64,000 nucleotides of DNA from a phage. The position numbers and the translations under genes are program-made. Where the stretch lies: the NCBI GenBank assembly GCA_011911785.1, contig GCA_011911785.1_4084.1. The stretch is one strand, 5' to 3'. The notes below the pieces were generated by a model that saw only the letters and a program-made list of their open reading frames with translations, was not told the DNA's origin and did no database searches. Shown piece after piece: positions 23,045 to 63,513 of this stretch. How positions within the stretch are numbered: position 1 is the first letter of the stretch; each line of letters opens with the position of its first letter.

Positions 23045-23045
23045 T

Positions 23046-23635: not shown

Positions 23636-23637
23636 TC

Positions 23638-24022: not shown

Positions 24023-24023
24023 T

Positions 24024-49752: not shown

Positions 49753-49754
49753 AA

Positions 49755-50096
49755 ATGAAAACTAATATTCAACTTAAGGTTTATAAATCATTTGCAAGTA
49801 CATATATCAAATGCAGTCTATGTAAAGATGTAATGGACTACAAAGGTAAGCCATTCACGATTACTTACGATTCTACAAGAGGTTTTTATATATCTTTTGC
49901 TGATTACAAATATAACATGTACGAACACATTGACATTAAAGATTTAAGTACTTTATCTGAAGAAGAATACTTTCAAGAATCATTAGTATGGGATTTAGAG
50001 TTTCCTATGCCATTGGTACATAAGATGATAGTACTAATAAAAGAAACTAAACAGGAGCCTAATAGTGCTTATGAAGAACACATTATTGAGTACTGA
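49755..50096 (+). CDS. F2 family protein (113 aa)
   Basis: Motif SEEEYFQESLVWD. Confidence 0.5.
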   Translation: MKTNIQLKVYKSFASTYIKCSLCKDVMDYKGKPFTITYDSTRGFYISFADYKYNMYEHIDIKDLSTLSEEEYFQESLVWDLEFPMPLVHKMIVLIKETKQEPNSAYEEHIIEY

Positions 50097-50099
50097 ACC

Positions 50100-50330
50100 A
50101 TGAAAAGATTATCATTCGAAGAGTACTGCAAGCTTATTAATACTTTACAACCACAAATAAAACAAATAAATTCTCTTCCTATATCCCAAGAAGAACGTGC
50201 AGTACTGAAAGATGAGTTAATTTTAAAATGCACAGTAGGTACTAACTATCAAGCTGATAGTGTTCGTTATCTAATTTGGGGTTTAATGTGCATAATAGAG
50301 AACAAAGCAGTTGACAGTACTCTAATGTAG
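50100..50330 (+). CDS. F1 family small protein (76 aa)
   Basis: Motif TVGTNYQADS. Confidence 0.5.
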   Translation: MKRLSFEEYCKLINTLQPQIKQINSLPISQEERAVLKDELILKCTVGTNYQADSVRYLIWGLMCIIENKAVDSTLM

Positions 50331-50378
50331 TGCTATAGTACTTGTACTTTTCGAGCGTTCTAATAGAGGGTACAGATT

Positions 50379-50624
50379 ATGTTAAAATTTTTAAATTTTC
50401 TTATCGTCTTGTGTATTGTTCTTGGGATTGCACCGTTTGTATTAGCGTATCTGGATTCAGATGAAATGCACAAGATGAATTGCACAAAGACAGGACAGAG
50501 TAGAAAAGAGACGGTTATGATGCCCGTAACGGTTATTGTGAATAACATGCCGATTACAAACATGGTCCCTACCCTAACGACAACGTACCAGTACTCTTGC
50601 GATGACGGAGAGAGATGGAGATGA
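50379..50624 (+). CDS. Small protein with N-terminal hydrophobic segment (81 aa)
   Basis: MLKFLNFLIVLCIVLGIAPFVLA. Confidence 0.45.
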   Translation: MLKFLNFLIVLCIVLGIAPFVLAYLDSDEMHKMNCTKTGQSRKETVMMPVTVIVNNMPITNMVPTLTTTYQYSCDDGERWR

Positions 50625-50958
50625 TGCGATAATGCGTAAGATCAATTGTATAAAAAGAGCGAATACATGTTTCATTGCGTTGACCAATGTACCGGGTGGG
50701 TCTGGTGTTAAGATATTTGAGTACAATAAAGTTGATAATTGTTTCTATTGGGTAGAAGGTATCAAATCATATGAAAATACGATAGCAGTACCGAATCTAG
50801 TTGATATCTCTGAAGAAGAAGAGTTTCAGTACATGTTAGTACACGATGATTCTTTTGGGTTGACATACAAAGAGATGAAGGAAGTACAAAGGCAGATGAT
50901 ATCATGTATGAATATTTCTAAGCATTTCCTTCAAAATATTCATCCAATTTACGTATAA
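50602..50958 (+). CDS. F2 family protein (118 aa; start may be 50632)
   Basis: Motif SEEEEFQYMLVHD. Confidence 0.45.
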   Translation: MTERDGDDAIMRKINCIKRANTCFIALTNVPGGSGVKIFEYNKVDNCFYWVEGIKSYENTIAVPNLVDISEEEEFQYMLVHDDSFGLTYKEMKEVQRQMISCMNISKHFLQNIHPIYV

Positions 50959-50967
50959 GAGATTAAT

Positions 50968-51303
50968 ATGAAATTCAACATTCATAGAATTAATTCCGGT
51001 TGTATATTTGCTTATACGCATGAGAATTACAAGAAGTACATGAATCATGAAGTACATTATGTTTTTGAGGACGGTAAAGAATATTTTGCTTATTTGAGTC
51101 CCAGGAGTTTAGGTAAGTACGAGTTGCTTCAGGATCTTTCTCTTATGCAGGAAGATGAATTATTTCAGTACAGTCTAATTCATGACCCTTATATGTTTGA
51201 TATAGATATTATGTGCAGTTTACAGAAGAGGATGAAAGAAGTTTGGGATTCGATTAAAAGAGGTGATTGTATAGAATATGATAGTATACAAGAAGATGCC
51301 TAA
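50968..51303 (+). CDS. F2 family protein (111 aa)
   Basis: Motif QEDELFQYSLIHD. Confidence 0.5.
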   Translation: MKFNIHRINSGCIFAYTHENYKKYMNHEVHYVFEDGKEYFAYLSPRSLGKYELLQDLSLMQEDELFQYSLIHDPYMFDIDIMCSLQKRMKEVWDSIKRGDCIEYDSIQEDA

Positions 51304-51496
51304 CGGATATGAATTGAAGTACAGACAGTTTATTCGAAATGTAGATTCAGATCCTTTTAATGTTAAAATGGCAGAGTTTGATTTATTATTTTATCTAGGA
51401 ACGAGAGCACAGCCACAATTCGTTGATGCATACATAAGGGCTTTACGAACAGAGATAGTATGCACACCAAAGGAGTCTAAATGTACAAAAATGTAA
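51278..51496 (+). CDS. F1 family small protein (72 aa)
   Basis: Motif YLGTRAQPQF. Confidence 0.5.
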   Translation: MIVYKKMPNGYELKYRQFIRNVDSDPFNVKMAEFDLLFYLGTRAQPQFVDAYIRALRTEIVCTPKESKCTKM

Positions 51497-51738
51497 ACCA
51501 TCATTTGTACGCATCGAAGTACAGGGATTTTTGTTTACAAGGGGGCGATGAAGATTTTGCTCTGCGATTATCGGAATTTAATATGTTATTTTATCTTGGT
51601 ACATCAGTACAAGAAGAAATGGTACAGAAATTTATCAAGCACCTTGAGCGAAAAATTCATACGCAAATTTTGGTTGTTAAGTTACAGAATGAGATAAATG
51701 AATACAATGCAGAATCTAACAATAGTACAGGATCTTAG
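51481..51738 (+). CDS. F1 family small protein (85 aa)
   Basis: Motif YLGTSVQEEM. Confidence 0.5.
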   Translation: MYKNVNHHLYASKYRDFCLQGGDEDFALRLSEFNMLFYLGTSVQEEMVQKFIKHLERKIHTQILVVKLQNEINEYNAESNNSTGS

Positions 51739-52099
51739 ACCAGTAATAATGATGTTAAATGCAAGACGAGATTTATGGCACGAAATGCATAACAAGAAGG
51801 ATTCATTTGCACAAATCAATTTAGTCTTTCAGGAGTTAATCCAGAGTGCATTGGGTGTTATCGAACCAAAATACAAAGATGGTATATTCTGTGTAAAGAA
51901 TGCAGTTCGTCCTCATGCAATTCCAAGGAAAATTAAGTTAGCCAGATTAACATTTGACGAGAGGGATTTCTTCAGTTATAATCCCAGTACAGCTTTATAT
52001 TTTATTCCTGATTCAGACAAATATCATCCTATCCATTACGGATGGATTATGTCTTATATAGTAAATGAAACGGAATACCCTATTAAATGGGAAAGATGA
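51698..52099 (+). CDS. Hypothetical protein (133 aa)
   Basis: ORF track; overlaps neighbours. Confidence 0.4.
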   Translation: MNTMQNLTIVQDLRPVIMMLNARRDLWHEMHNKKDSFAQINLVFQELIQSALGVIEPKYKDGIFCVKNAVRPHAIPRKIKLARLTFDERDFFSYNPSTALYFIPDSDKYHPIHYGWIMSYIVNETEYPIKWER

Positions 52100-52275
52100 T
52101 GATAGATACAAAGACATTAAATGCATTACAGGATTCATTATTAGATAGTATTAAGCTGTATTACAATATGCATTTGAGGGGTGGTATCAATGATTACAAT
52201 TATTATTTGAGTGTAATTATATTTGAGCATCTTTCAGTACAGGATAGAATTTTACACAAGTACAAACATTATTGA
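52087..52275 (+). CDS. Hypothetical small protein (62 aa)
   Basis: ORF track; ATG start. Confidence 0.35.
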   Translation: MGKMMIDTKTLNALQDSLLDSIKLYYNMHLRGGINDYNYYLSVIIFEHLSVQDRILHKYKHY

Positions 52276-52286
52276 GGAAACAAAAT

Positions 52287-52646
52287 ATGTTCAATAAAAT
52301 CATGTTCATTTTAACATTTGTGTTTTTATCATTCACAAACACCGCTCATGCAGCACAGGCAGTACAGGCATCATCGGATGTACCGTTATATGAAACATAC
52401 AAATTTGATTGCAGATTACAGAATAATGAAATAATCAATATCTTTTTACACAATACAGAAGTACCTTATTTGCAGATTGAAGCAACGAAGTACATGTATT
52501 ATGGTACGAATTCGGTACAGGAATTTTTATTTAAACACACAGAACAGGATGTAATTATATCATTGCAGTACGTTGATAGTTCATTGTCTTTAATGCATTT
52601 CAAGAATGCAGAGGGATTAGTTACAGTGCTCAAATGCTATAGGTAA
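52287..52646 (+). CDS. Small secreted protein with signal peptide (119 aa)
   Basis: MFNKIMFILTFVFLSFTNTAHA; RBS GAGGA; track TTG start 52272 rejected. Confidence 0.5.
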   Translation: MFNKIMFILTFVFLSFTNTAHAAQAVQASSDVPLYETYKFDCRLQNNEIINIFLHNTEVPYLQIEATKYMYYGTNSVQEFLFKHTEQDVIISLQYVDSSLSLMHFKNAEGLVTVLKCYR

Positions 52647-52652
52647 TAATAT

Positions 52653-53168
52653 ATGAATGAAATTGAATTATTAACGCACAAGATTAGTACAATAATGCTT
52701 ATGCTCAAAAATAATCATCCTATACATAAGTACATTGATATAGATGAATTACGCATAGAAGATAGGCATGGTAAATTATCGTTTATGTTTCACAATGCAA
52801 ATAATGCAGGGAATGTTAACGTTTGTTTTGCAGCATTTACCCAAGCCAATCCAGTACAAACATCTCCTGTTGTATACGAAAATAAAGAAGGGTATTTGTG
52901 GGTAAACACAAACGATTATTTCTTTTATGATTTGAAACAAGATGATGAAGTAGAAGAACGAATTGATTTAATTGATATTAGTACAGATTGTAGTGCTGAA
53001 TTATTTCAGAAATCGTTATTATATAGTCCTCGTCAAATGCATTATCTAAAGTTATTCAGTTCATTGTACGCGAATCCTTTAATTAAGGGTTTTAAATTTT
53101 ATATAAAAGTTCCTGACATTCAAGCAGTTTATGATATTTTGATGCAAGGATATAGTTATGAAGTATAG
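52653..53168 (+). CDS. F2 family protein (171 aa)
   Basis: Motif SAELFQKSLLYS. Confidence 0.5.
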   Translation: MNEIELLTHKISTIMLMLKNNHPIHKYIDIDELRIEDRHGKLSFMFHNANNAGNVNVCFAAFTQANPVQTSPVVYENKEGYLWVNTNDYFFYDLKQDDEVEERIDLIDISTDCSAELFQKSLLYSPRQMHYLKLFSSLYANPLIKGFKFYIKVPDIQAVYDILMQGYSYEV

Positions 53169-53466
53169 AATGCTCTATACCAAAGATATGATTTATGTTG
53201 AATTAGAAGGCGATGAAGACGGTTGGAATTTGATTTATTCATGTAGTTCAGGTTGGTACATGGCACATTTAAATGATAACGAAGTCACAGATTATTTTGT
53301 AGATTTCAATACATTATCCGACGAAGAATTGTTTCAACAGCAATTAGTGATTGACACAGGTGGATATGATGTGTTATTATTAAAAAAGATACAGAAAGCT
53401 GTTATGAATTTTAATGCACATGTATCCGAATGGGAAAGGAAATATTATGACCTCGAAGTACAATAA
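53158..53466 (+). CDS. F2 family protein (102 aa)
   Basis: Motif SDEELFQQQLVID. Confidence 0.5.
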   Translation: MKYRMLYTKDMIYVELEGDEDGWNLIYSCSSGWYMAHLNDNEVTDYFVDFNTLSDEELFQQQLVIDTGGYDVLLLKKIQKAVMNFNAHVSEWERKYYDLEVQ

Positions 53467-53815
53467 TACATTTGATATTAATAAGTTAACAGAATGGTTT
53501 TATAATATTGAAATTGAAGCTATTCCGTATCACAAGTACGAACAACGTGATTTACGTAGTATAGATATTCGTGAGTTGTACGAGTATTATCAGAGTGCAT
53601 TAGAGATGCATAAGATATTTTTGAGTACAGAATACATGACACGTTGTAAGGATGCGTTTGATGAATTCAAGAAGAATGATAATTTAGTACAGAAATATGT
53701 AATAGCAAAGTACATGTACCTTCAGGGAATTACAAGTACAGTGCAATTCAATACAGTTCTTGCTTTAGTTGAGATTATTTTATTATGCAAAAATGTAAAG
53801 TGGAATTTAGTTTAG
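53447..53815 (+). CDS. Hypothetical protein (122 aa)
   Basis: No family motif; track start 53414 rejected. Confidence 0.4.
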   Translation: MTSKYNNTFDINKLTEWFYNIEIEAIPYHKYEQRDLRSIDIRELYEYYQSALEMHKIFLSTEYMTRCKDAFDEFKKNDNLVQKYVIAKYMYLQGITSTVQFNTVLALVEIILLCKNVKWNLV

Positions 53816-54282
53816 AGAGTGCTGTGCAGTACGTTAAGTACATTGAAGGTGTATACAATATAATGAAAGCATATGAAGGAAAAGGATATGCTTCAATAAA
53901 TCACAAATATGATTATATTAACAATCAGTTAGAAGAATCAAATTCAGGTAAAGTGCTTTTTAGTTTTTTATATTTTGCTCCTGACAATGTATATCCTGAT
54001 GAAAATGATCTTCGTCTGGAAAGAGATGACCTTTGGTATATGTATCCAGGACGTGATAAGCCAATGGATGATGCTTTGTTGGAAATCAAATACAGTCCAG
54101 AACCCTTGACACCGGAGTTGTGGTTCCAGTACAGTACAATACATGAAGAAATTGATATCTTTTTCTACGCAATATACAAGATGCTTTATGAGAATGGTGT
54201 GCTTAAGAATCATGTATATTTTTATTTCCAGCAAATGAAAAATGTATATGAGTCCTTTTACCCAACCGAGCCTGTATCGTAA
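53785..54282 (+). CDS. F2 family protein (165 aa)
   Basis: Motif TPELWFQYSTIHEE. Confidence 0.5.
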   Translation: MQKCKVEFSLESAVQYVKYIEGVYNIMKAYEGKGYASINHKYDYINNQLEESNSGKVLFSFLYFAPDNVYPDENDLRLERDDLWYMYPGRDKPMDDALLEIKYSPEPLTPELWFQYSTIHEEIDIFFYAIYKMLYENGVLKNHVYFYFQQMKNVYESFYPTEPVS

Positions 54283-54308
54283 GATATGGGCTTTTTTTCG
54301 TTTTGGTA

Positions 54309-54337
54309 TTGACACAGTACAGAATCGGTGCTAATAT
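54309..54337 (+). promoter_or_regulatory. Sigma70-type promoter TTGACA-17-TAATAT inside the F2 array
   Basis: Preceded by a weak hairpin + T7 run. Confidence 0.5.
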
Positions 54338-54363
54338 ACCTGAACATTTTTAAGGAGAACCCC

Positions 54364-54897
54364 ATGCAAACATCGCAAAAATCGCAAGTACAGAAAGCAA
54401 TGTCATTCAATGAAATTGGTGCATTTAAAGATAAGATTATTGATTGTATTGAATACGCGATTTGTAGTAATATCAAAAGTATAGAGGTATTTAACAAGTC
54501 AAATCGCTCTTACCATATGATGTACATTGCAAACAATAATGGTATCATTCCATTTGTTTCGGATAGTACAATATGGTTCGCTTGCGATGTGAAAAAATAC
54601 ACAATAGGTTCATATGTCTTCGGTAAACATGGTGATCTAATTATTCCTGAGCATTGTATGCAAGAAGAAGAATATTTTCAAAAGCAATGTGTACATGAAC
54701 CATTAGAGATGGTTGCTTTATATATGATACCTTATATCTCTAAATGTGTTCATGAGAATAAAGCTCCGTGGAATCATGAATTTGTATCGTTGAAGTTATT
54801 GTATAATGTTTTAGTACAATATTATGATTACAGACACGAGGGTACAATCAGCGATGTATGGGATTTCGAAAATTTAAGGGTAAAAACATATGAATAA
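54364..54897 (+). CDS. F2 family protein (177 aa)
   Basis: Motif QEEEYFQKQCVHE; RBS AAGGAG; track start 54328 rejected. Confidence 0.5.
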   Translation: MQTSQKSQVQKAMSFNEIGAFKDKIIDCIEYAICSNIKSIEVFNKSNRSYHMMYIANNNGIIPFVSDSTIWFACDVKKYTIGSYVFGKHGDLIIPEHCMQEEEYFQKQCVHEPLEMVALYMIPYISKCVHENKAPWNHEFVSLKLLYNVLVQYYDYRHEGTISDVWDFENLRVKTYE

Positions 54898-55528
54898 TTT
54901 TCCAAGAAATGCTTCACCGTATGAGGTGATGAAGTTCATGGAGCCTCATGTTCCTTATATGTTTGAAATGCTAAAGAAGTTCAATGCTATTTTCCCTGAG
55001 AATTCAAAATTGGAGATTCCATTTGATTCCGCATCCAGATACAGTGCATCCTGTGGTAAATTAGTTTTAGTTATCGGTAGTGACAGAATAGGTTTCAGGG
55101 AAGTATTTGACACGTCATTAGCATTTGGTATATTCGATAACAACAATAACATCACATACATTGACAAGTACATTTGCGACATAGCAGGTTCCTCTAAGCC
55201 GGATTCCTTTGTGGATTCAGTTGCAGATTATGGTGTTTCAAAAGATGGTAATGTAATAAGTACAAAGACGTTCATATCATTATCGTTAGAAGATGACATA
55301 TGTTACATTGCAGGGCAAGAGTACGAGGGTGTAGAGGAAGTGCTTTTTCAAATGTCCTTAGTACAGAAGGATATGGTGGACCCTACCGAAATCCTGAAGT
55401 TGTGCAAATATGCGAATGAGTACAAGAAATTGATTGAACCTGGGTTTAGTTTCAGTGCACAGAGTCCGCATTTTCAGATAAAAGTATATGAAGATTTCAT
55501 TTTGAAGTTAAAAGAGATTGTGTTATAA
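54890..55528 (+). CDS. F2 family protein (212 aa)
   Basis: Motif VEEVLFQMSLVQKD. Confidence 0.5.
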   Translation: MNNFPRNASPYEVMKFMEPHVPYMFEMLKKFNAIFPENSKLEIPFDSASRYSASCGKLVLVIGSDRIGFREVFDTSLAFGIFDNNNNITYIDKYICDIAGSSKPDSFVDSVADYGVSKDGNVISTKTFISLSLEDDICYIAGQEYEGVEEVLFQMSLVQKDMVDPTEILKLCKYANEYKKLIEPGFSFSAQSPHFQIKVYEDFILKLKEIVL

Positions 55529-55580
55529 TACGCAATAACATGCAATAACACACAATACAACAAAGACGGGAGTGATTTAG

Positions 55581-56117
55581 ATGATCCAGCACAAACATTT
55601 TGAGTACGAGTTCGCTGACAATTTAGTAAAAATCGTACAGGCGTTTGAGGCTGGGGATTTTGACCACATCTATCCTAAGCACAAGGAAGGATGGCTTGAG
55701 CCTAAGAGCGATATTGAAAAGTATCCATCTATTGTGTATTACAGGAGAGATACGGTAATGCACGCTGTAGGTGAGAAGATGCAGTTAGAGTATTGTCTTT
55801 TGTTCAATGCTATTACATCGGCTACATCAGCATCTGAAGAGTTCGCTCCAGTGAATTGGATTCGTTATTTGGATATGAGCAAGAGAGAGGAAGAAACCTT
55901 TTTTGGTTTAACAAAGCACGTTGATATTGCAACCTTGAATCCTAACATCCTGAGTCCTGAAGAATATTTTCAGGAGTCCTTAGTACAAGATCCTTATATT
56001 TTACAGGTGCAGCAAGTATATAATGTATTACGTGCTAATGTGAAAACGAATTTCTTTTTAGCTTTAACGTGGTACGATAGGTTAGTAAAAGATCTCAAAG
56101 AGATTAAGGGGGAGTAA
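55581..56117 (+). CDS. F2 family protein (178 aa)
   Basis: Motif SPEEYFQESLVQD. Confidence 0.5.
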   Translation: MIQHKHFEYEFADNLVKIVQAFEAGDFDHIYPKHKEGWLEPKSDIEKYPSIVYYRRDTVMHAVGEKMQLEYCLLFNAITSATSASEEFAPVNWIRYLDMSKREEETFFGLTKHVDIATLNPNILSPEEYFQESLVQDPYILQVQQVYNVLRANVKTNFFLALTWYDRLVKDLKEIKGE

Positions 56118-56683
56118 TGCTGGACCTTCAGGACATAGAAAGTACATGCAAAGCGATAGAAGATGATTTAGAATACATCAAGGGGTTGTATTTAATTGTA
56201 GATAGGATTTACAAAAATCCGAATGCGTTTCAGGAAACGTACCAGCATGATAAATTTCGACACGAACCAATCATTACGCTTATGTCGGATTTATCGATTT
56301 ACGAAAGAAAATCCAACAAATCACATAGTGTATTATTTGTGAGTACAGATAGATTTTACAGTACAACATCAATTTGTTCAGATGTATCATGTGCATGGTT
56401 CAGTTCAAATGAATATATAACAGTTAAAAATAATGGCGAAAATGAGAAATTAAAAGTAAGTGAGCTTATTGATTTGATGCCATATAGTCCTGATGTAGTG
56501 TTTCAGTACAGTACATTGCACGATTATAATTCAATACGATATCGTTATTTTGTTAAGCATTATTATGATACCTTCGGGGAGTTAACGGAGAAGTTAACGT
56601 TGAGATTTGACCGTGATATTGATCTCGTTGCAATGCTTCAGTACATACAGTACGTGTTTGATAAGGACGCGGAAAAGGGGTAA
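56117..56683 (+). CDS. F2 family protein (188 aa)
   Basis: Motif SPDVVFQYSTLHD. Confidence 0.5.
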   Translation: MLDLQDIESTCKAIEDDLEYIKGLYLIVDRIYKNPNAFQETYQHDKFRHEPIITLMSDLSIYERKSNKSHSVLFVSTDRFYSTTSICSDVSCAWFSSNEYITVKNNGENEKLKVSELIDLMPYSPDVVFQYSTLHDYNSIRYRYFVKHYYDTFGELTEKLTLRFDRDIDLVAMLQYIQYVFDKDAEKG

Positions 56684-56895
56684 TTTTAAAATGATAAATA
56701 TAGGCTTGTTTTTGGGGGCGTTTTGGGGGGTCAAAAAAATTTTCGCTGAAAAACATGTTAAGGTATATGTTTAATATAAAATTTTATATTGTGTTTTTCA
56801 GAGTACAGTTCATGTTTCCTTAAACAAAAAATACCCCGCCGCCGAACGTGCTCCTTATATTGTAGTTTACCTTATTAATTATAGTAGAGGTTATT

Positions 56896-57252
56896 ATGAG
56901 CAATGATTTTGCTATTCACAGTTTTTTCTACAAAAAGGTTGAGTTCTATTGTAATCTCGTTAAGGGTGATACCAATCATTCGTTGGACCAATATATTAAG
57001 TACACCTCAAATGGATTTTCTTTTATTGATTACGGTCGAGTGGGTGGTGGTGTTAATGAACCTATGCTGGACTATACAGAAATGGATGAGGCTACACTAT
57101 TTCAGGAATCATTAGTGTTCGATAAGAAATATATTTGTACACTAGATGAAGTTATTGGTATTCAGAATATCATGAAAGAACACTCTGCGAAGTGCATGAT
57201 AGAATTAACTCAAGATAAGCACAAGACTGTTCAGTACCATTTCAATCTTTAG
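56896..57252 (+). CDS. F2 family protein (118 aa)
   Basis: Motif DEATLFQESLVFD. Confidence 0.5.
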   Translation: MSNDFAIHSFFYKKVEFYCNLVKGDTNHSLDQYIKYTSNGFSFIDYGRVGGGVNEPMLDYTEMDEATLFQESLVFDKKYICTLDEVIGIQNIMKEHSAKCMIELTQDKHKTVQYHFNL

Positions 57253-57263
57253 GGGTCTTAACT

Positions 57264-57608
57264 ATGACATACAATGAATACCGTGAAATAGATCTTCTCC
57301 AGAATACATTATATGAAATTGAAGATTTAATGCACGGATGGACAAGTCTTTCTTTCTTTAATGAAATGTTCGAAGAAATAAAAGTAGTACTACAGAAAAA
57401 ACATAATGGTACTAAAATTAAAATAAAGACTTTCACTGGAGAAGTCTGGTGCGGAGAAATTGTGAAATACATTATAACTCGCAATAACGCATCATTCTGT
57501 TTGAATACTGGTCATTACAGAAATCATTTCAACAATAGCAGTACTCAAGTTATTTCCGAGGAAGAATACAATGAGCACTGTAATAAACTTCTTAAGAGTA
57601 GATTCTAA
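57264..57608 (+). CDS. F2-like protein, degenerate motif (114 aa)
   Basis: ISEEEYNEHCNKL in the motif position. Confidence 0.4.
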   Translation: MTYNEYREIDLLQNTLYEIEDLMHGWTSLSFFNEMFEEIKVVLQKKHNGTKIKIKTFTGEVWCGEIVKYIITRNNASFCLNTGHYRNHFNNSSTQVISEEEYNEHCNKLLKSRF

Positions 57609-57934
57609 TGAATACTAAAATATATGTTTCTTCAAGTACAATGGGAAGTGGTTTTACTTATACGTGCTTTTTTACTACATTGAATAAAACACCTATATTG
57701 ATTATTCGTGATTTCAATGAATGTAATATAGAGTACGTATCCAAAACAGATAAGCTTCCTAATTACATCGAATGCGAATACATGGAGAACTATGAAAGTT
57801 TTATATTTCAGGAATCATTAGTATGGGATAAAGAAATCGATTTCTTTATGTACCTTGCATTACAAAAGTACTACAGAGATAACAAGGACCAAATAGTTCG
57901 TTCTTGCATTTATTCTATTAATCTGGAGTACTGA
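57608..57934 (+). CDS. F2 family protein (108 aa)
   Basis: Motif ESFIFQESLVWD. Confidence 0.5.
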   Translation: MNTKIYVSSSTMGSGFTYTCFFTTLNKTPILIIRDFNECNIEYVSKTDKLPNYIECEYMENYESFIFQESLVWDKEIDFFMYLALQKYYRDNKDQIVRSCIYSINLEY

Positions 57935-58104
57935 TGCTTAAAAAAGAACAAATGGAATCATTAATGAATGCAGTTATTCGTCGTTTTGTTAAAGACATTA
58001 GTCATAAAAACTGTATTACAAATGACAGGTACGGTATAGAATTGTATATAGCTAATATTCACATGGCGTACAGAGAATATATTAAGACACGTCACAGGGG
58101 TTGA
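57934..58104 (+). CDS. Small ORF (56 aa), likely 3' remnant of an F2 copy
   Basis: Ends ..KTRHRG + GGTTGAAATGAG junction identical to the end of 58106-58588. Confidence 0.3.
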   Translation: MLKKEQMESLMNAVIRRFVKDISHKNCITNDRYGIELYIANIHMAYREYIKTRHRG

Positions 58105-58105
58105 A

Positions 58106-58588
58106 ATGAGTTTAGAAAGTGCATTGAAAGAAGCAAAGAAGATTCATGAGTACATGAATATGGCAAAAGAAGGTTCAGTTTACGGTATTTTCAAAGACAC
58201 AAGTACTCAATATTATGTCTCTGATAACCTCATTGATAATGACTTCCCAGATACAGAAACGTGCGTACTAGATACCGACCCTAATGATTATGAATGTTTC
58301 ATTGATATGCATAATGAGTACATGGTCTATGTTAATGATGGAGATATTACCATCTACAGTACTGTCCACGATACCGATGACATTATAATTCCGTGTGCAG
58401 TACTGGAAGGTCCGTGGGATAGTGAAGAGTATTACTTCCAACAAAGTACTGTATACAATGAAGAAGAACTTGATTGTATTGTAATTATGTGGTACTTTAA
58501 AAGTATTGGTTCTGAGAACTTCTATTTCGATTACAGATACGTAAAGAAAACTGTAGATAACGGTATTAATAAACTTCACAGGGGTTGA
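58106..58588 (+). CDS. F2 family protein (160 aa), one of a recently duplicated triplet
   Basis: Motif SEEYYFQQSTVYN; N-term MSLESALKEAKKIHEYM. Confidence 0.55.
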   Translation: MSLESALKEAKKIHEYMNMAKEGSVYGIFKDTSTQYYVSDNLIDNDFPDTETCVLDTDPNDYECFIDMHNEYMVYVNDGDITIYSTVHDTDDIIIPCAVLEGPWDSEEYYFQQSTVYNEEELDCIVIMWYFKSIGSENFYFDYRYVKKTVDNGINKLHRG

Positions 58589-58589
58589 A

Positions 58590-59033
58590 ATGAGTTTAGA
58601 AAGAGCACTAGAACTAGCCAACAAAATACATCACTTCCACGATAACATAAAAAGTGGGTTCTATGGTGATAAAGTAAGTGCATTTGGTAATGAGTATTAT
58701 CTATCAGGTATAAAGACATACTCTGCTGATATTTTACTTATGGGTCATGATAAAGACAATACTATACAGTACTCTTCATGTAGTCAATATACTAGTTTTA
58801 TGGTATATATTCCAGGTACTAAGATTACTTTTGACACATCAAATTCACCTGTTGACTTCGGGGTACTTGATGGCCCGTGGGGTACTGAAGAGTATTACTT
58901 CCAACAGAGTCTCATTTTTAACCAAGAAATGCTTGATTCCTTGGTTGTGTTGTGGTACTTTAAGGAATTGAATTTTGAACCATTCTTTCTTGACTGGGGA
59001 GCATGTGAATATTTAAGTACAGGGGATTTGTAA
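58590..59033 (+). CDS. F2 family protein (147 aa), triplet member
   Basis: Motif TEEYYFQQSLIFN. Confidence 0.55.
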   Translation: MSLERALELANKIHHFHDNIKSGFYGDKVSAFGNEYYLSGIKTYSADILLMGHDKDNTIQYSSCSQYTSFMVYIPGTKITFDTSNSPVDFGVLDGPWGTEEYYFQQSLIFNQEMLDSLVVLWYFKELNFEPFFLDWGACEYLSTGDL

Positions 59034-59488
59034 TGTCGTTACAAAGTGCATTGAAAGAAGCAAAGAAGATTCATGAGTACATGATTAAGGTCAAAGGTGG
59101 AGAAATTCCAGGTATCTTCAAAATGTCAGAGACTGAATATTGCACGAAGAATATTGAGGATTTTGATGGTTCTGATACATTAGTACTGCAATGTGATGAT
59201 TATGATCATGATAATTGTGGTTATAACCCTTTGTACTACTTTATCAATTACTACCCAGGGTCAGATATAACCGTATACAACCCTGATTATTATGCTAAAG
59301 ATTTGACAATTCCGTTTTCAGTACTGGATGGTCCGTGGGATAGTGAAGAGTATTACTTTCAGCAAAGTACTGTATATACTGAACATGAACTCGATACTCT
59401 GGTCATTATGTGGTACTTTAAAAGTATAGATTCAACATGTTTCTATATGGATTATGAATACATAGAGACACAGAAATATAAGAGGTAA
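59033..59488 (+). CDS. F2 family protein (151 aa), triplet member
   Basis: Motif SEEYYFQQSTVYT; 5' ~40 nt identical to 58106 gene. Confidence 0.55.
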   Translation: MSLQSALKEAKKIHEYMIKVKGGEIPGIFKMSETEYCTKNIEDFDGSDTLVLQCDDYDHDNCGYNPLYYFINYYPGSDITVYNPDYYAKDLTIPFSVLDGPWDSEEYYFQQSTVYTEHELDTLVIMWYFKSIDSTCFYMDYEYIETQKYKR

Positions 59489-59493
59489 TTGTA

Positions 59494-59940
59494 ATGTTTT
59501 TTTATTATTATGAAGTAAATGATAAGTTGGTTCAGGATATTGTACAAATAATCAAGTACTTCAATGATAATCCTAAAGTATTGGGTAGTGAACTTGAATA
59601 CGAGAAAGGTGGGTGTGTATATTTTACTTTCTGCGGTGGGTGCTCTGATGAGCAATCATTTTTCAATTCTTATTCAAATTACATCTCCTATAATGCACTT
59701 GCAGACGAGTTGATTGTGGTACGTGACAGTAGTGATGACCGTACAGTGTATACCAGAGAGACAATACAAAGTGTAGGTAATGAAGAAGGATACTTTCAAT
59801 TGAGTACAGTACTTAATCATGAAGAACTACATGTATTACGTTTGTTTTATCTTATTAGTACTATGAACTTGAAGCACGATCAGGTATACATTGATTTAGA
59901 TTACTTTGAGTACTTACGTAAGATTAGTTCTAAAAAATAA
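59494..59940 (+). CDS. F2 family protein (148 aa)
   Basis: Motif NEEGYFQLSTVLN. Confidence 0.5.
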   Translation: MFFYYYEVNDKLVQDIVQIIKYFNDNPKVLGSELEYEKGGCVYFTFCGGCSDEQSFFNSYSNYISYNALADELIVVRDSSDDRTVYTRETIQSVGNEEGYFQLSTVLNHEELHVLRLFYLISTMNLKHDQVYIDLDYFEYLRKISSKK

Positions 59941-59950
59941 GTTCATGCTA

Positions 59951-59978
59951 TTGACAAGAGCCTGTACTGTGTTACAAT
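59951..59978 (+). promoter_or_regulatory. Sigma70-type promoter TTGACA-16-TACAAT
   Basis: Read directly. Confidence 0.5.
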
Positions 59979-60012
59979 GCACAGTAATATTAATTCAAAA
60001 GGTGCACATTAA

Positions 60013-60546
60013 ATGATTATTGATGCTTACAATGCTGAGGAAATGCAGGAATTATCTCGTAAAATCAACATTATAGTTCCTTTGCTTAAGGATTGCAGTA
60101 CTGGTTTGATTCCATCACGAGACATTATTAAAGAAGGATACTACCTACAGGCAGTCTATAAGGGTGGTACATTTCATCGTTGTCGTGTATTACGTGATGG
60201 CCTTCCTGCACTTACACTTATTGGTATTGGTATTGCCGTATGCGGCACGAACCGTTTGTACTTGAATGAAAAAAATCAAATCATGAATTTGTTTTATACA
60301 GGAAAAAGTACTGAATTATATTTTGGTATTCAGAACTGGTGGGATACAGTAAAGAGTAGTACTATTGAAATCCCAAAATACAATTACAACACATTTGAAG
60401 AGCAGATGTTTCAATTGTCATGTACAGATGACATGTACATGATTCTACGTCTCTATATGGAGATGCAAATGAACTTCAGAAGTAATTTATACATTGATAC
60501 TTCAACATTTGAATTCGAAGATGTATTCGTTGATGGTATATTATGA
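60013..60546 (+). CDS. F2 family protein (177 aa)
   Basis: Motif FEEQMFQLSCTDD. Confidence 0.5.
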   Translation: MIIDAYNAEEMQELSRKINIIVPLLKDCSTGLIPSRDIIKEGYYLQAVYKGGTFHRCRVLRDGLPALTLIGIGIAVCGTNRLYLNEKNQIMNLFYTGKSTELYFGIQNWWDTVKSSTIEIPKYNYNTFEEQMFQLSCTDDMYMILRLYMEMQMNFRSNLYIDTSTFEFEDVFVDGIL

Positions 60547-60770
60547 AGTATATTCCAAAACACCAGTACTACAGGATGTGTTCTGACATTTACACAAAAT
60601 GGAATACATTTCATCCCCTTTTGAAGAAGAGGCGTCCATATCATGATTACAAGTTGAATCATTTTCTTGGAACTAATTATCAAGAGGTTGTGATGAAAGA
60701 TTACATTTTTAACCTTCAGAAATTAATTCAGAATAAAGTTCAAGGAAAGGGGGAGTCACCGTGGGTATAA
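60543..60770 (+). CDS. F1 family small protein (75 aa)
   Basis: Motif FLGTNYQEVV. Confidence 0.5.
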   Translation: MKYIPKHQYYRMCSDIYTKWNTFHPLLKKRRPYHDYKLNHFLGTNYQEVVMKDYIFNLQKLIQNKVQGKGESPWV

Positions 60771-60967
60771 GACACAGAGACATGCAAGATATTCTTAACC
60801 AATACAGTGCTCAAATGTTCACTGCAATCAGGTCTTCCAATCAAAATGACGTGTCGGAATTACAGTTACTGATGTACATAGGGACACAATACCAGGAGGC
60901 TTCAGTTGAGACGTATATTAAGTACCTATTGGGTATTATAAGGATGAAAAATGGACAATACTTTTGA
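60761..60967 (+). CDS. F1 family small protein (68 aa)
   Basis: Motif YIGTQYQEAS. Confidence 0.5.
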   Translation: MGIRHRDMQDILNQYSAQMFTAIRSSNQNDVSELQLLMYIGTQYQEASVETYIKYLLGIIRMKNGQYF

Positions 60968-61187
60968 ACAAGCACCAGCATCGGATTTTAGTTATGGGTT
61001 TATTATAGATATATTTTCTGGTACTGAAGAATCGGATATACCTCTTTATATCTTTGCTAATATGCGTTATATTTTTCGTATTGCAGAGGACAGTGACAAA
61101 TCTGATATGTCTTTTATGATTAAAAAAATCATATACTTATCGTGCTATGAATATATGAATGAAATGAGCGAACACTATGACCTATGA
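60951..61187 (+). CDS. Hypothetical small protein (78 aa)
   Basis: No family motif. Confidence 0.4.
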   Translation: MDNTFEQAPASDFSYGFIIDIFSGTEESDIPLYIFANMRYIFRIAEDSDKSDMSFMIKKIIYLSCYEYMNEMSEHYDL

Positions 61188-61725
61188 TGAGATAATTTCT
61201 TTTGCAAATAAGTTAAGTACACTAACCAAATTGACGGAAGTAGTACTGCAAGATGAGCGTATACTTTCTAGGAGTGAGCTAATTGTTTCACAACACGATT
61301 ACATGACGTATATGTCTTTCAGATCGTCAGGCCGAACAATTATTAAGTTCGGTTCTGTTCCTGAAACAAATGGAAAATTATCTATGTGCACCCATAACAA
61401 TGGGGAATTGTATGGATTAGTGTACAGAAAAGATTCGACAGTACTGAATACTTTTAATGCAGGTGCGAGTGCAGTTGATGTTACATCATTAAGCGATGTT
61501 GACAAACACATAGATTTACCACACATTGAAATTAATGAAGAAAGTGTTTTTCAGTTAAGTACTTTGTACAATGATATTGAAGTGTTTGGTATTTCTTTAT
61601 GGAATATCCTTCGTTTAAGGGATGATGCTCCTGTATTTGTATATGCAAATTATGAAGACATTGATACTTGTATTGATGAAATGGAGAAATACATTGATCA
61701 ATTTAAACAAAACTTCCACATTTGA
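61177..61725 (+). CDS. F2 family protein (182 aa)
   Basis: Motif NEESVFQLSTLYND. Confidence 0.5.
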   Translation: MTYDEIISFANKLSTLTKLTEVVLQDERILSRSELIVSQHDYMTYMSFRSSGRTIIKFGSVPETNGKLSMCTHNNGELYGLVYRKDSTVLNTFNAGASAVDVTSLSDVDKHIDLPHIEINEESVFQLSTLYNDIEVFGISLWNILRLRDDAPVFVYANYEDIDTCIDEMEKYIDQFKQNFHI

Positions 61726-62284
61726 TATTCACGAGAAAGCTAAGCTACTCATCAGTACTGCTGAATATTATTACGATACAGTACTGAGTCAATCACCTTC
61801 TACATTTCGTGATTTAGTTAAATCATTTAATAAAACACAAAAAGACTGTGAGCTTTCATATAATGGTGTGAACTTTATGTATATTAAACCATATATGTCA
61901 AAGCGTGATTTGATTAAATGCAATGATGATTTCAAGATTGATCGTGATTTAAATCGTTTCTTCTACGATGTAAGAAGCAATCTGTATCAACTTACATTAA
62001 ATTCCAGTACTTCTTTCATTATTGGATTGGGTAAGAATTTAGGCACAGGTACTTCATTTTATAATAAAGGTGCAGTACAAGATGTGGATCTCAATCCAAG
62101 TACTGATGTTGCATTCCAACAGGATTTGATTATGAATGTGGATTCAGCATCAGTATACAGTTCTAATGTTCTGTGTAAGGAATTTCAGAATTCCAAAATT
62201 CTTGAGTTATTGTACATTGCGGATTGCAATATACTGTACAAATTTTGTACTCATCTGAAGGAGATTTATGAAAAAAGAAATTAG
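61676..62284 (+). CDS. F2-like protein (~202 aa; start uncertain, overlaps upstream gene)
   Basis: VAFQQDLIMN in the motif position; first in-frame ATG after track start region. Confidence 0.35.
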   Translation: MKWRNTLINLNKTSTFDIHEKAKLLISTAEYYYDTVLSQSPSTFRDLVKSFNKTQKDCELSYNGVNFMYIKPYMSKRDLIKCNDDFKIDRDLNRFFYDVRSNLYQLTLNSSTSFIIGLGKNLGTGTSFYNKGAVQDVDLNPSTDVAFQQDLIMNVDSASVYSSNVLCKEFQNSKILELLYIADCNILYKFCTHLKEIYEKRN

Positions 62285-62636
62285 AATCCAATTCGGTATG
62301 AGGAAAAAAGAGGTCATTTGTACACTGAATCATGCGGTCGTGGAAAGGTTTGATGCATTACAAAAATTCTCCCATTTTGTTCTTGTACTATATGAAAATG
62401 GGTCTTTTAAAATCTTCACATATGATGATTCAAAAAATTATCGTAATGATTTTGTAAATCTTACAGTACTGTCAGAAGAGGAATTCTTTCAGGAAAGTAC
62501 AGTCTGGGATTTACCAGGAGCACCAATTGAATACGTCCGTGCTACACAGGCAGAAATGATCAAAGCAATGCAGAACTATCCAGAAGATCATATGACTAAG
62601 TTTCCTGAATCTATTCATGTAGAGGTTGAGTACTGA
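62268..62636 (+). CDS. F2 family protein (122 aa)
   Basis: Motif SEEEFFQESTVWD. Confidence 0.5.
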   Translation: MKKEIRIQFGMRKKEVICTLNHAVVERFDALQKFSHFVLVLYENGSFKIFTYDDSKNYRNDFVNLTVLSEEEFFQESTVWDLPGAPIEYVRATQAEMIKAMQNYPEDHMTKFPESIHVEVEY

Positions 62637-62974
62637 TGGATTTAGTAAAAGTTACTATAGCCAAACATCAGTACTATGTAATGATTGAGTTAGGTTATAA
62701 CCACAAGAAAGAACATTTTTATTATCTTACATATGAAAAGAATATGTTCAAGATAATCACTAATAATTTAGCACGAGATGTATTTCATATTTTTGATTAC
62801 AGTGATTATAGTGAAGAAGAGTTATTTCAGGAATCATTAGTATGGGAGTACAATAGAATTGTAGATATTGAAAAGTTATTTAAGTATCAACAACTAATGA
62901 AAGATATAATGAATAACTATCCATGTGAACTACAAAGAGAACTGGAATTTATTGTCCAATACAAAGAGGTTTAA
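62636..62974 (+). CDS. F2 family protein (112 aa)
   Basis: Motif SEEELFQESLVWE. Confidence 0.5.
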   Translation: MDLVKVTIAKHQYYVMIELGYNHKKEHFYYLTYEKNMFKIITNNLARDVFHIFDYSDYSEEELFQESLVWEYNRIVDIEKLFKYQQLMKDIMNNYPCELQRELEFIVQYKEV

Positions 62975-62976
62975 TT

Positions 62977-63513
62977 ATGTTAGATTATGACAGAATAGAG
63001 AAAGATGATTGGGACGGTACTCACCATTTAAAGGTTGACACTTTTGAACACGCTCGCAGTACTGCTCAAGATCTTATGCAAATCCATGAGTTCATTTGTA
63101 ATAACAGAGAGACTTCTATTTGGACAAAATCTGACAGATTTATTGATTCAAGTTATGATTACTTCAGTATTCGTTCAAATCATCTAGATGATGACGGGTA
63201 CAGTGTTGATATGTTCAATATCAACAAATTTAATGACCCTGAATATGATCCAAAATACAGCGGTGGATTTTTAAGTTATTCCCCTAACTATGACAGAATA
63301 AAGTTCTTTTACGTAGATACTGACATTGTTCTTCCATTTATCGAAGAAGAACTTACCGAAGAACTGTTCTTTCAGATGAGTACTGTTGACGACCCGTACA
63401 TAGTTGGTGTACAATTCATGTTCTCTTGGCTTAAACAGAATAACTTCCCTCCTTTTTATGTTGACCTTACTTTTTACGATTTGATTTGGAATTTTGTTCG
63501 TAATCCATCTTGA
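62977..63513 (+). CDS. F2 family protein (178 aa)
   Basis: Motif TEELFFQMSTVDD. Confidence 0.5.
   Translation: MLDYDRIEKDDWDGTHHLKVDTFEHARSTAQDLMQIHEFICNNRETSIWTKSDRFIDSSYDYFSIRSNHLDDDGYSVDMFNINKFNDPEYDPKYSGGFLSYSPNYDRIKFFYVDTDIVLPFIEEELTEELFFQMSTVDDPYIVGVQFMFSWLKQNNFPPFYVDLTFYDLIWNFVRNPS

What the first reader, a model, noticed from the sequence alone, without database searches (positions are those of the whole stretch)
57934..59488. Footprints of recent unequal recombination inside the F2 array
Three adjacent F2 genes (58106, 58590, 59033) begin MSL(E/Q)(S/R)AL..AKKIH.. with long stretches of nucleotide identity, and the junction CACAGGGGTTGAAATGAGTTTAGAAAG occurs at both 58087-58113 and 58570-58596. 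The short ORF 57934-58104 ends with the same ..HRG + junction sequence, which looks like the 3' remnant of a deleted copy. The array is therefore actively expanding and contracting.
Basis: seen in the sequence. Interest (0 to 1): 0.5.

Follow-up and report, generated by a model that had tools for sequence, protein, structure and literature searches.

The report
Gene-cassette loss in a jumbo-phage array
Three neighbouring copies of an uncharacterised gene family in a giant E. coli phage carry real recombination scars, and relatives show that one whole gene was cleanly cut out here; this is an ordinary way for tandem gene arrays to change, with loss documented but no recent gain.

Summary
The window comes from an Asteriusvirus, a 121Q/PBECO4-like jumbo coliphage. 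Genes 1 and 3 share a 42-nt exact run plus 51-94-nt blocks of 76-85% identity.

Comparison with relatives gives what the window alone cannot:
- All 34 database relatives carry one more paralogue, the 121Q gene-371 homologue, between gene 1 and gene 2.
- The window lacks exactly that unit (467 bp).
- Gene 2 is therefore a hybrid. Its ribosome-binding region and first 18 nt come from the lost gene.
- The same junction appears in four other independent assemblies, so it is real and inherited.
- Eight other phages lack gene 1 instead. Their layout equals A4's with the segment between the two junction repeats removed; the A4 repeats start 484 bp apart.

The array does lose and swap whole cassettes by recombination at the short conserved gene-start boxes.

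The short ORF is not shown to be a remnant: only its last ~31 nt resemble gene 1's tail. There are also no young duplicates, since the closest paralogues are 53% identical.

The repeated 27-mer predates the window's deletion. The family (phrog_9317) has no known function. This is a known kind of process, shown here with precise breakpoints.

The parts
57934..58104 (+). Short ORF 'S' (56 aa, basic, ends ..YIKTRHRG). Its stop codon lies 1 nt before the gene 1 start.
   Evidence: ORF list. It is found in only 9 phage records: A4 at 100%, and eight 'type II' phages at ~64% aa, once in each. It shows no significant similarity to the family. pI is 9.7.
58080..58119 (+). Junction repeat, copy 1. It comprises the tail of S, GGGG (a likely Shine-Dalgarno), TGA, A, ATG and the first 14 nt of gene 1. 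The exact 27-mer is 58093-58119.
   Evidence: It is 37/40 identical to copy 2. Bases 2-27 of the 27-mer (26 nt) equal the 370|371 junction of G17, BF17 and UE-S1; JP4, Ecwhy_1 and 121Q each differ at one base.
58106..58588 (+). Gene 1, the orthologue of 121Q gene 370, with a mosaic 5' end. Nt 1-14 are 371-type, nt 7-52 are 373-type, and the rest is 370-type at ~91% nt to 121Q-type phages.
   Evidence: phrog_9317, E = 7e-61.
58564..58603 (+). Junction repeat, copy 2. It comprises the tail of gene 1, the same RBS/stop/start string and 14 nt of coding sequence. The exact 27-mer is 58577-58603. It is inherited from the gene 1|371 junction seen in A4.
58604..58607 (+). Inferred crossover interval (AGCA) of the one-gene deletion. 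Sequence up to 58603 is 371-type and sequence from 58608 is 372-type.
   Evidence: Alignment of gene starts. A 467-nt gap sits at this place in the four-genome alignment. The interval assumes a parental 372 allele with a 121Q-like 5' end, which is an inference.
58590..59033 (+). Gene 2, a 371/372 hybrid. The upstream region and first 18 nt come from the lost 371 homologue. The body is the 372 orthologue, 100% identical to A4 from about nt 180 of the alignment.
   Evidence: The exact protein is encoded in three other assemblies.
59033..59488 (+). Gene 3, a divergent 373-type paralogue (~70% nt to other phages' 373). Its first ~55 nt are 93% identical to 373 elsewhere, and it shares a 42-nt exact run with gene 1.
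58116..58157 (+). 42-nt exact repeat shared with 59043-59084 (codons SALKEAKKIHEYM). Codon 2 just upstream encodes Ser as AGT in gene 1 and TCG in gene 3.
   Evidence: dS between genes 1 and 3 is 0.18 in the first 20 codons and saturated in the middle.
59043..59084 (+). Second copy of the 42-nt exact repeat.
58382..58516 (+). Motif-region block (..VLEGPWDSEEYYFQQSTVY..IMWYFKSI), 76-85% identical to 59303-59437 in gene 3 and 79% identical to 58862-58917 in gene 2.
   Evidence: dS between genes 1 and 3 is 0.50 here.

Best explanation
The three genes are what remains of a four- to five-member tandem sub-array (121Q genes 370-374) of a jumbo-phage-specific family of small acidic proteins.

Each gene begins with nearly the same short string: a ribosome-binding site, the stop codon of the preceding gene, ATG, and the codons for MSLE(S/R)AL. 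These 20-40-nt direct repeats lie one gene length apart. They act as substrates for short-homology recombination, meaning unequal crossover or copy-choice during the phage's replication.

In the window's lineage, an exchange between the starts of the adjacent 371 and 372 genes removed exactly one gene unit (467 bp). It fused the 371 upstream region and first 18 nt to the body of 372. Reading frame and translational coupling were kept.

The same kind of exchange between the two 27-40-nt junction repeats accounts for the presence or absence of gene 1 in other phages. It also accounts for the mosaic 5' end of gene 1, and for the 370-372 block being far more similar to other lineages than its flanks are.

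Shown: the repeats, the one-unit deletion, the hybrid junction, its presence in independent assemblies, the gene 1 polymorphism, and the uneven synonymous divergence.

Inferred: the direction of the gene 1 event, the exact crossover interval, the enzymology, and any function of the proteins. They are probably early, non-essential host-interaction genes.
For: 1. Identity of the phage. The best match is Escherichia phage A4 (Asteriusvirus). All 34 matching records are Asteriusvirus-type coliphages or Salmonella phages.

2. The deletion.
- A4 has S-354-355-356-357 where the window has S-gene 1-gene 2-gene 3.
- The window is colinear with A4 over 56000-58612 at 98.7%, then jumps.
- A four-genome alignment places one 467-nt gap at window 58610.
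- The other six phages sampled outside the type II group (121Q, G17, JP4, BF17, Ecwhy_1, UE-S1) also have the 471-nt gene between the gene 1 and gene 2 homologues. The type II phages WPEC3 and fEgEco12 have it directly upstream of the gene 2 homologue.
- None of the 34 records has the window's gene 1|gene 2 junction as one contiguous match.

3. The hybrid junction. The window's gene 2 starts ATGAGTTTAGAAAGAGCA, preceded by cacaggggttgaa. That equals the start of 371. It continues CTAGAACTAGCCAAC.., which is 372-type and identical to 121Q gene 372.

4. Not an artefact. The identical junction occurs in GCA_025677605.1 (98.6% to the window), in GCA_036253495.1 (99.3%) and in two short Logan contigs. 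Parsimony-informative sites fit the tree (A4,(L010,(window,L013))), which needs only one event.

5. A second polymorphism. Eight records have S' directly followed by 371. This equals A4 with the segment between its two junction repeats removed; the repeats start 484 bp apart in A4.

6. Mosaicism. Gene 1's 5' end is 371-type, then 373-type, then 370-type. L010 has a different patch at the same junction. dS between genes 1 and 3 is 0.18, saturated and 0.50 along the gene.

7. A similarity island. The 370/371/372 genes are 90-96% nt identical to other lineages. Gene 3 is 70%, and flanking genes are 28-53% aa identical.

8. Concerted junction evolution. Turkey5 has its own junction string, ctagaggata.gtaATGAGTTTAGAAAG, at two family genes.
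Against: - Every Asteriusvirus genome examined here is a consensus assembly. No within-population copy-number variation has been seen, so 'ongoing' turnover is not shown.
- The 5' coding box ATGAGTTTAGAAAG(A/T)GCATTAGAA is conserved even in Turkey5, whose proteins are only 31-57% identical. Part of the identity is therefore due to selection on the N-terminus and translation start plus codon bias, not to recent exchange.
- The excess of shared synonymous codons between genes 1 and 3 (53 of 72 against 31.9 expected) is spread over the gene. By my own back-of-envelope estimate, not a tool result, the 14-codon run is not remarkable against that gene-wide rate.
- The crossover interval depends on assuming a parental 372 allele with a 121Q-like 5' end. 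With an A4-like allele, four more substitutions are needed.
- Unequal crossover and replication slippage give the same product and cannot be told apart.
- Whether a 371 homologue sits elsewhere in the ~350-kb genome could not be checked. None is present in the 64-kb window.
Confidence: 0.8

Rival explanations
1. The repeated junction and 5' box are kept alike by selection alone. The constraints would be the Shine-Dalgarno sequence, the stop-start coupling TGAAATG, and the conserved N-terminal MSLE(S/R)AL helix under AT-rich codon bias. On this view they say nothing about recombination.
For: The coding part of the box is almost identical in the distant phage Turkey5. ACAGGGG precedes three of the gene starts. 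The N-terminal helix is modelled with pLDDT around 90.
Against: - The non-coding or upstream part differs completely between orthologous junctions of different lineages: cacaggggttgaa, aaagaggatat and ctagaggatatgta. Yet it is shared by paralogous junctions within one genome.
- The 27-mer has no third copy even at 3 mismatches, so it is not a general regulatory motif.
- Deletion breakpoints map to these boxes.
- dS drops in the boxes.
Confidence: 0.1
2. The polarity is reversed. The window shows the ancestral three-gene state, and A4 and the other phages gained the 371 gene by insertion or duplication.
For: Presence or absence alone does not give a direction. The family clearly grew by duplication at some time in the past.
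Against: - 371 is present in all 34 records. A 57%-identical orthologue is also present in the distant Turkey5.
- 371 is only 30-34% identical in protein to its neighbours, so it is not a young duplicate.
- The window's gene 2 carries 371-specific bases at its start.
- The genomes lacking 371 form one shallow group next to A4.
Confidence: 0.04
3. The short ORF 57934-58104 is the leftover 3' part of a deleted family copy.
For: Its last 31 nt match the tail of gene 1 at 26 of 31, including the HRG-stop. The 10 of 13 matches upstream of the exact 27-mer are more than chance would give. The dN/dS between S and its type II homologue is high: 17 non-synonymous against 7 synonymous codon differences.
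Against: - The other ~140 nt show no similarity to any family member. Local alignment z-scores are at most 1.8, apart from one unreplicated z = 4.3 among 32 tests.
- The ORF is intact in nine records from two lineages.
- The protein is basic while the family is acidic.
- The shared tail is equally well explained if the exchanged cassette starts ~31 nt before the gene start.
Confidence: 0.15
4. The missing gene is an assembly artefact, a collapse between the repeated junctions.
For: Repeats are present at the breakpoint.
Against: The shared stretch at the crossover is only ~18 nt, shorter than usual assembly k-mers. The identical junction is found in five independent assemblies from different samples, including two ~352-kb contigs that differ from the window by 0.7-1.4%.
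Confidence: 0.01

Closest known systems
PeSL-mediated modular shuffling in the hyperplastic regions of T4-type phages (Arbiol et al. 2010, PMC2839356; Comeau et al. 2014, PMC4122927)
   Same: Short conserved sequences repeated between small non-essential genes of a large lytic myovirus serve as recombination sites. Closely related phages differ by clean insertion, deletion or replacement of single gene cassettes bounded by those repeats.
   Different: A PeSL is an intergenic early promoter plus a stem-loop terminator. Here the repeat is the translational junction: the tail of one gene, the RBS, a stop/start and the first ~5 codons of homologous genes in one operon. No promoter or terminator is predicted at it. 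PeSL-like cassettes do occur elsewhere in this window. Mini-circles have not been looked for.
Unequal crossing-over, gene conversion and 'genomic accordions' in tandem gene families, for example poxvirus K3L amplification and globin or R-gene clusters (from my own knowledge, not checked here)
   Same: Paralogues sit head to tail. Copy number changes by exactly one repeat unit, a hybrid gene forms at the breakpoint, and homogenised patches lie between otherwise diverged copies.
   Different: Accordions involve near-identical young copies and rapid expansion under selection. Here the copies are old (30-53% aa), the homology used is only ~20-40 nt, and only contraction and replacement are documented.
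Spontaneous deletions between short direct repeats in phage T4, the classical rII deletion studies (from my own knowledge, not checked here)
   Same: The deletion end points lie in direct repeats of one to two dozen bases in a large virulent phage.
   Different: Those were laboratory mutants at arbitrary repeats. Here the repeats are a regular feature of every gene boundary in a paralogue array, and the product is an in-frame functional hybrid fixed in nature.
Paralogue families of RaK2-like jumbo phages. [quoted passage not shown]
   Same: The phage group is the same. The family's only structural neighbours are uncharacterised proteins of 121Q, RaK2, GAP32, SP27 and Serratia phage BF.
   Different: Where I searched the RaK2 and CBB papers for paralogues and duplication, they only list paralogues. 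I found no description of breakpoints, copy-number variation or this family's junction repeats in them or in the other papers I searched.

Membership tests
Tandem array changing by unequal / short-homology recombination | Paralogues head to tail on one strand | tested here: met
   Genes at 58106, 58590 and 59033 are all on the + strand, spaced by 1 nt or overlapping by 1 nt. Mutual identity is 31-53% aa, and all three match phrog_9317.
Tandem array changing by unequal / short-homology recombination | Direct repeats at equivalent positions of neighbouring units | tested here: met
   A 27-nt exact and 40-nt 37/40 repeat lies 484 nt apart. The 371 and 372 starts share ATGAGTTTAGAAA.AGCA.
Tandem array changing by unequal / short-homology recombination | Close relatives differ by whole units, with breakpoints in the repeats | tested here: met
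   A 467-bp unit is missing in the window against A4 and all 34 records. The gene 1 unit is missing in eight phages; the junction repeats that bracket it start 484 bp apart in A4.
Tandem array changing by unequal / short-homology recombination | Hybrid gene at the breakpoint | tested here: met
   Gene 2 has a 371-type upstream region and first 18 nt, then a 372-type body.
Tandem array changing by unequal / short-homology recombination | Young, near-identical duplicates (evidence of current expansion) | tested here: not met
   The best paralogue pair in the trio is 53% aa. The best anywhere in the window is 65%. No examined genome has more than five members of the sub-array.
Tandem array changing by unequal / short-homology recombination | Copy-number variants within one phage population | not testable with these tools
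   Only consensus assemblies are available.
PeSL regulatory cassettes of T4-type phages | Sigma-70-like early promoter combined with a stem-loop terminator in an intergenic spacer | tested here: not met
   There is no spacer, since stop and start are 1 nt apart. No promoter or terminator is predicted at 58080-58120 or 58560-58610. The nearest PeSL-like element is at 59951-59986.
PeSL regulatory cassettes of T4-type phages | Insertions, deletions or replacements between close relatives are bounded by the cassette | tested here: met
   This holds for the junction boxes as an analogous behaviour.
PHROG family phrog_9317 (unknown function) | Full-length profile match | tested here: met
   E-values are 7e-61, 4.7e-55 and 3.8e-47 for genes 1-3, and 7.4e-55 for A4_355, covering about 1-155 of 160 profile positions. 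No Pfam family matches at E up to 0.1.

The most novel reading that the evidence does not exclude
The junction box (tail, RBS, stop/start and the first five codons) is not merely an accidental homology. On this reading it is a maintained cassette-exchange signal, the operon-internal counterpart of T4 PeSLs. It would let co-infecting jumbo phages swap, drop or re-insert individual members of a repertoire of acidic early proteins with a hypervariable middle region, possibly through excised circles. The array would then behave as a shuffling counter-defence library. The window's hybrid gene 2, the similarity island bounded by boxes, and the lineage-specific but within-genome-uniform junctions would all be products of that system.
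Probability: 0.1. Interest if true: 0.6.

Novelty: new member of a known kind. Interest (0 to 1): 0.3.

Why it matters
This gives a base-pair-resolved natural example of how the large paralogue arrays of RaK2/121Q-like jumbo phages turn over. Those arrays make up about a tenth of the genes in such phages, and their function is unknown.

Whole genes are lost or exchanged at the conserved translational junctions, and the products stay in frame and remain translationally coupled.

Three practical points follow:
- The 371 homologue is dispensable in nature.
- The 370-372 block moves between lineages.
- The junction boxes are the places to look for copy-number variants in lysates.

It does not reveal a new mechanism or the function of the family.

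Tried and rejected
- **Wider distribution.** A profile search of 1.84 billion representatives found only 85 clusters. All were single-domain and 39-212 aa long, so no fusion partner gives a clue.
- **Is S a family fragment?** BLASTP and shuffled local alignments against 16 family members gave nothing reproducible.
- **Is gene 3 a 373/374 crossover hybrid?** A sliding-window comparison shows it closest to 373 throughout, so this was rejected.
- **Gene-conversion test by shared synonymous codons.** There is an excess over the codon-usage expectation (z = 5.2). It is not clearly clustered once the gene-wide rate is taken as baseline. Region-wise dS was more informative.
- **E. coli complete genomes.** A search for the deletion junction found no match.
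- **Literature.** Searches for a prior description of this family or of array dynamics in Asteriusvirus or RaK2-like phages found only general statements about paralogues.
- **Protease-site idea.** The invariant E-x-x-F-Q-x-S motif resembles a TEV/3C protease site. The motif lies in a confidently modelled helix-turn-helix, and nothing else supports the idea, so I did not pursue it.
Full report
**1. What the window is**

The region 57400-60000 matches only Asteriusvirus-type jumbo phages (121Q, PBECO4, slurp01, G17, phAPEC6 and others). That is 34 records, and the closest is Escherichia phage A4, ON286972.

The window is not identical to any record I could fetch. Over about 6.4 kb around the finding:
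- A4 is about 97-99% identical.
- Two ~352-kb contigs filed under E. coli assemblies are 98.6% (GCA_025677605.1) and 99.3% (GCA_036253495.1) identical.

**2. The observation**

The 27-mer CACAGGGGTTGAAATGAGTTTAGAAAG is present exactly twice, at 58093-58119 and 58577-58603. Shuffles gave no copies.

The repeat extends to 40 nt at 37/40, covering 58080-58119 and 58564-58603. It comprises:
- the last eight codons of the preceding ORF (..HRG),
- a GGGG that probably serves as Shine-Dalgarno,
- TGA, one A, then ATG,
- the first 14 nt of the next gene.

A self dot-plot of 57.5-59.6 kb gives six off-diagonal segments of 51-94 nt at 76-85%. None appeared in shuffles. The longest exact run between genes 1 and 3 is 42 nt, at 58116-58157 and 59043-59084.

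Between these blocks the genes are 33-56% identical in nucleotides. The blocks are short, though, and confined to the 5' box and the C-terminal motif.

**3. What relatives show: a one-gene deletion**

| Genome | Arrangement |
|---|---|
| A4 | S (171 nt) - 354 (483) - 355 (471) - 356 (444) - 357 (456) |
| Window | S (171) - gene 1 (483) - gene 2 (444) - gene 3 (456) |

The window is colinear with A4 up to 58612 and then skips the 471-nt gene. A four-genome alignment puts one 467-nt gap at window position 58610.

The missing gene is the homologue of 121Q gene 371. In 121Q, G17, JP4, BF17, Ecwhy_1 and UE-S1 it lies between the gene 1 (370) and gene 2 (372) homologues. In WPEC3 and fEgEco12, which lack 370, it lies directly upstream of 372.

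A 301-nt probe across the window's gene 1|gene 2 junction matches all 34 records only as two or more pieces. No deposited phage has this junction. The 64-kb window holds no other 371 homologue.

**4. The breakpoint**

| Sequence | Upstream | Start of gene |
|---|---|---|
| 371 in the non-type II phages sampled | (a/c)acaggggttgaa (one-base variants in 121Q, JP4, Ecwhy_1) | ATGAGTTTAGAAAGAGCATTAGAG.. |
| 372 | aaagaggatat | ATGAGTTTAG.AA..GCAC.. |
| Window gene 2 | cacaggggttgaa | ATGAGTTTAGAAAGAGCA then CTAGAACTAGCCAACAAAATACATCA.. |

The window's gene 2 therefore has the 371 upstream region and the first 18 nt of 371. It then continues as 372. That continuation is identical to the 121Q allele of 372 and differs at six of its first 31 nt from A4's allele. 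After that it is 100% A4-like.

If the parental 372 had the 121Q-like 5' end, the crossover lies in AGCA (58604-58607). That sits inside a 23-nt stretch with two mismatches. This step is an inference.

The product keeps the reading frame and the TGAAATG coupling to gene 1.

**5. The deletion is real and inherited**

Exactly the same junction occurs in GCA_025677605.1, in GCA_036253495.1, and in two short Logan contigs from other runs, SRR9693738 and ERR7425836.

Informative sites in the flanks favour grouping window + L013 against A4 + L010: 21 sites against 8 and 3. This fits the rooted tree (A4,(L010,(window,L013))) and a single event.

The lineage has since diverged by 0.7-1.4% from the window over this stretch. 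The event is recent on the scale of the genus, but it is not evidence of turnover in a present population.

**6. The repeated 27-mer itself**

The pair of 27-mers already exists in A4, which still has 371. It is therefore not the scar of the window's deletion.

It brackets gene 1. Eight records have the S homologue directly followed by 371: WPEC3, WPEC5, TH47, fEgEco12, vB_Ec-M-J, Turkey3, CMSTMSU and ph0011. That arrangement is A4's with the segment between the two junction repeats removed. The A4 repeats start 484 bp apart, and spacing and coupling are preserved.

In 25 records (121Q type) gene 1 is preceded by an unrelated gene, 369, and begins ATGACATTACAGAG...

In A4 and the window, the start of gene 1 is a mosaic:
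- ATGAGTTTAGAAAG is 371-type.
- TTAGAAAGTGCATTGAAAGAAGCAAAGAAGATTCATGAGTACATGA is 373-type, and exact in WPEC3's 373.
- The remainder is 370-type, 91% nt identical to 121Q-type phages.

GCA_025677605.1 carries a different patch at this same junction, with a longer 371-like tract.

The two junction copies are identical within the genome. The orthologous S|371 junction of type II phages differs from them at 4 of 27 positions. The distant phage Turkey5 has its own junction string shared by two family genes.

So junctions are more alike within a genome than between orthologues. That is what concerted evolution by exchange between paralogous junctions gives.

**7. Other signs of exchange**

Synonymous divergence between genes 1 and 3, by region:

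| Region | dS |
|---|---|
| First 20 codons | 0.18 |
| Middle | saturated |
| Motif region | 0.50 |

In the same two genes, codon 2 (Ser) is AGT in one and TCG in the other, directly before the 42-nt identical run.

The 370, 371 and 372 genes of the A4/window lineage are 90-96% nt identical to those of the other lineages. Gene 3 is 70% identical, and flanking genes are only 28-53% identical in protein. The edges of this island lie at the gene 1 start and in the first ~55 nt of gene 3. This suggests the block was exchanged between lineages through the same boxes.

Caveat: the coding part of the box is conserved even in Turkey5. Some of the identity is therefore due to selection and codon bias.

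**8. The short ORF**

S is present only in A4 and the eight type II phages, once in each. It is intact and 64% identical in protein between the two lineages.

It is basic (pI 9.7), whereas the family is acidic at pI 4.2-5.2.

Apart from its last ~31 nt, which match the gene 1 tail at 26/31, it shows no reproducible similarity to any family member. Its dN/dS looks high, with 17 non-synonymous against 7 synonymous codon changes, so it may not be under strong constraint.

'Remnant of a deleted copy' is therefore unproven. The shared tail is equally well explained if the exchanged cassette begins ~31 nt upstream of the start codon.

The 9-nt-longer tail (..INKLHRG) also exists in a 121Q-type context, in Logan contig L015.

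**9. No sign of expansion**

The closest pair in the trio is 53% identical in protein. No examined genome has more than five members of this sub-array.

Only loss, replacement and patchy conversion are documented.

**10. What the genes are**

All three genes, and the lost one, belong to phrog_9317, which has unknown function. They have no Pfam match.

They are part of a wider set of about 20 proteins at 49.7-63.5 kb. These share an N-terminal helix and an invariant F-Q in the motif E-x-x-F-Q-x-S-x-V.

The profile finds only 85 clusters in 1.84 billion representative proteins, all short and single-domain.

The genes sit in a tightly coupled same-strand block with sigma-70-like promoters nearby, one of them directly downstream at 59951-59986. 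This would fit early expression. I infer, with low confidence, that they are non-essential host-interaction proteins. The natural loss of 371 and of 370 shows that individual members are dispensable.

**11. Comparison with what is known**

The behaviour is that of tandem gene families changing by unequal or short-homology recombination. Within phages it is closest to PeSL-mediated modular shuffling in T4-type hyperplastic regions (PMC2839356, PMC4122927).

It is not a PeSL. There is no intergenic spacer, promoter or terminator at the junction.

RaK2-like phages are known to have many paralogues (PMC3622015, PMC5259590). I found no description of these breakpoints in the papers I searched.

**12. 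Verdict**

Contraction and cassette exchange through junction repeats hold up. The remnant ORF, current expansion and ongoing activity do not.
- This is a new example of a known process, with modest interest.

Noticed in passing
window 206, 935, 2358; and ~27891, 34048, 35395, 36016, 37315, 37585, 40474, 40968, 42478, 42817: Repeated composite cassettes that look like T4 PeSLs. Type (a) is GGTTGACTTCGGTCAGCCCTTTTTGCTATAAT, a hairpin plus T-run overlapping a promoter. Type (b) is TTGACA-N17-TATAAT followed by the hairpin GGGGAGAATAGTTCTCCCC. Both occur upstream of many small ORFs.
   Followed up: partly
window 59951-59986: A strong sigma-70-like promoter (TTGACA-16-TACAAT, with TG) overlaps the hairpin TACTGTG..CACAGTA. 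It lies directly after the gene at 59494-59940 and so marks the end of the block that holds the three genes. It is unique in the window.
   Followed up: partly
window 45178-51496 (+ 60543-60967); 6465-20481 (minus strand); 20992-24221: Other large paralogue families occur in the window: 21 members of 60-90 aa, nine members of 304-977 aa on the minus strand (best pair 65% identical), and six small members.
   Followed up: no
window 49755-63513: About 20 proteins share an invariant F-Q within E-x-x-F-Q-x-S-x-V, for example EEYYFQQSTV, EEVLFQMSLV and EEELFQESLV. The motif resembles TEV/3C protease recognition sites, but in the model it lies in a confidently folded helix-turn-helix.
   Followed up: partly
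window 62268-62636 vs L002 1913-2281 (121Q gene 367): This gene is 90-93% identical in protein to 121Q/G17/BF17 gene 367. In those phages gene 367 lies upstream of 368-370. In the window and A4 the gene lies about 3.7 kb downstream of gene 1, and JP4 and Ecwhy_1 lack it at that place. This is another cassette that changes position or presence.
   Followed up: partly
L002 ~3003-3497 (121Q gene 370); also cluster representatives P0003 and P0007: An internal 21-nt tandem duplication (DTETCVL twice) is present in the gene 1 orthologue of some phages and absent from the window's copy.
   Followed up: no
L009 1409-2137 (UE-S1): One 729-nt ORF matches the window's 56896-57252 protein twice. It appears to be a fusion of two neighbouring short family genes.
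   Followed up: no
window 57993-58008, 56645-56666, 61267-61283, 61688-61692: Differences among the four closest genomes are clustered in short patches, for example 8 L010-specific sites within 16 nt of the S ORF. This suggests that divergence arises largely by short imported tracts.
   Followed up: no
L001 500-1036 (A4_348) = window 55581-56117: A4 annotates this array member as 'DNA ligase'. The protein has no Pfam hit, and it matches phrog_28680, phrog_12674 and phrog_9317, all of unknown function. The annotation looks wrong.
   Followed up: partly
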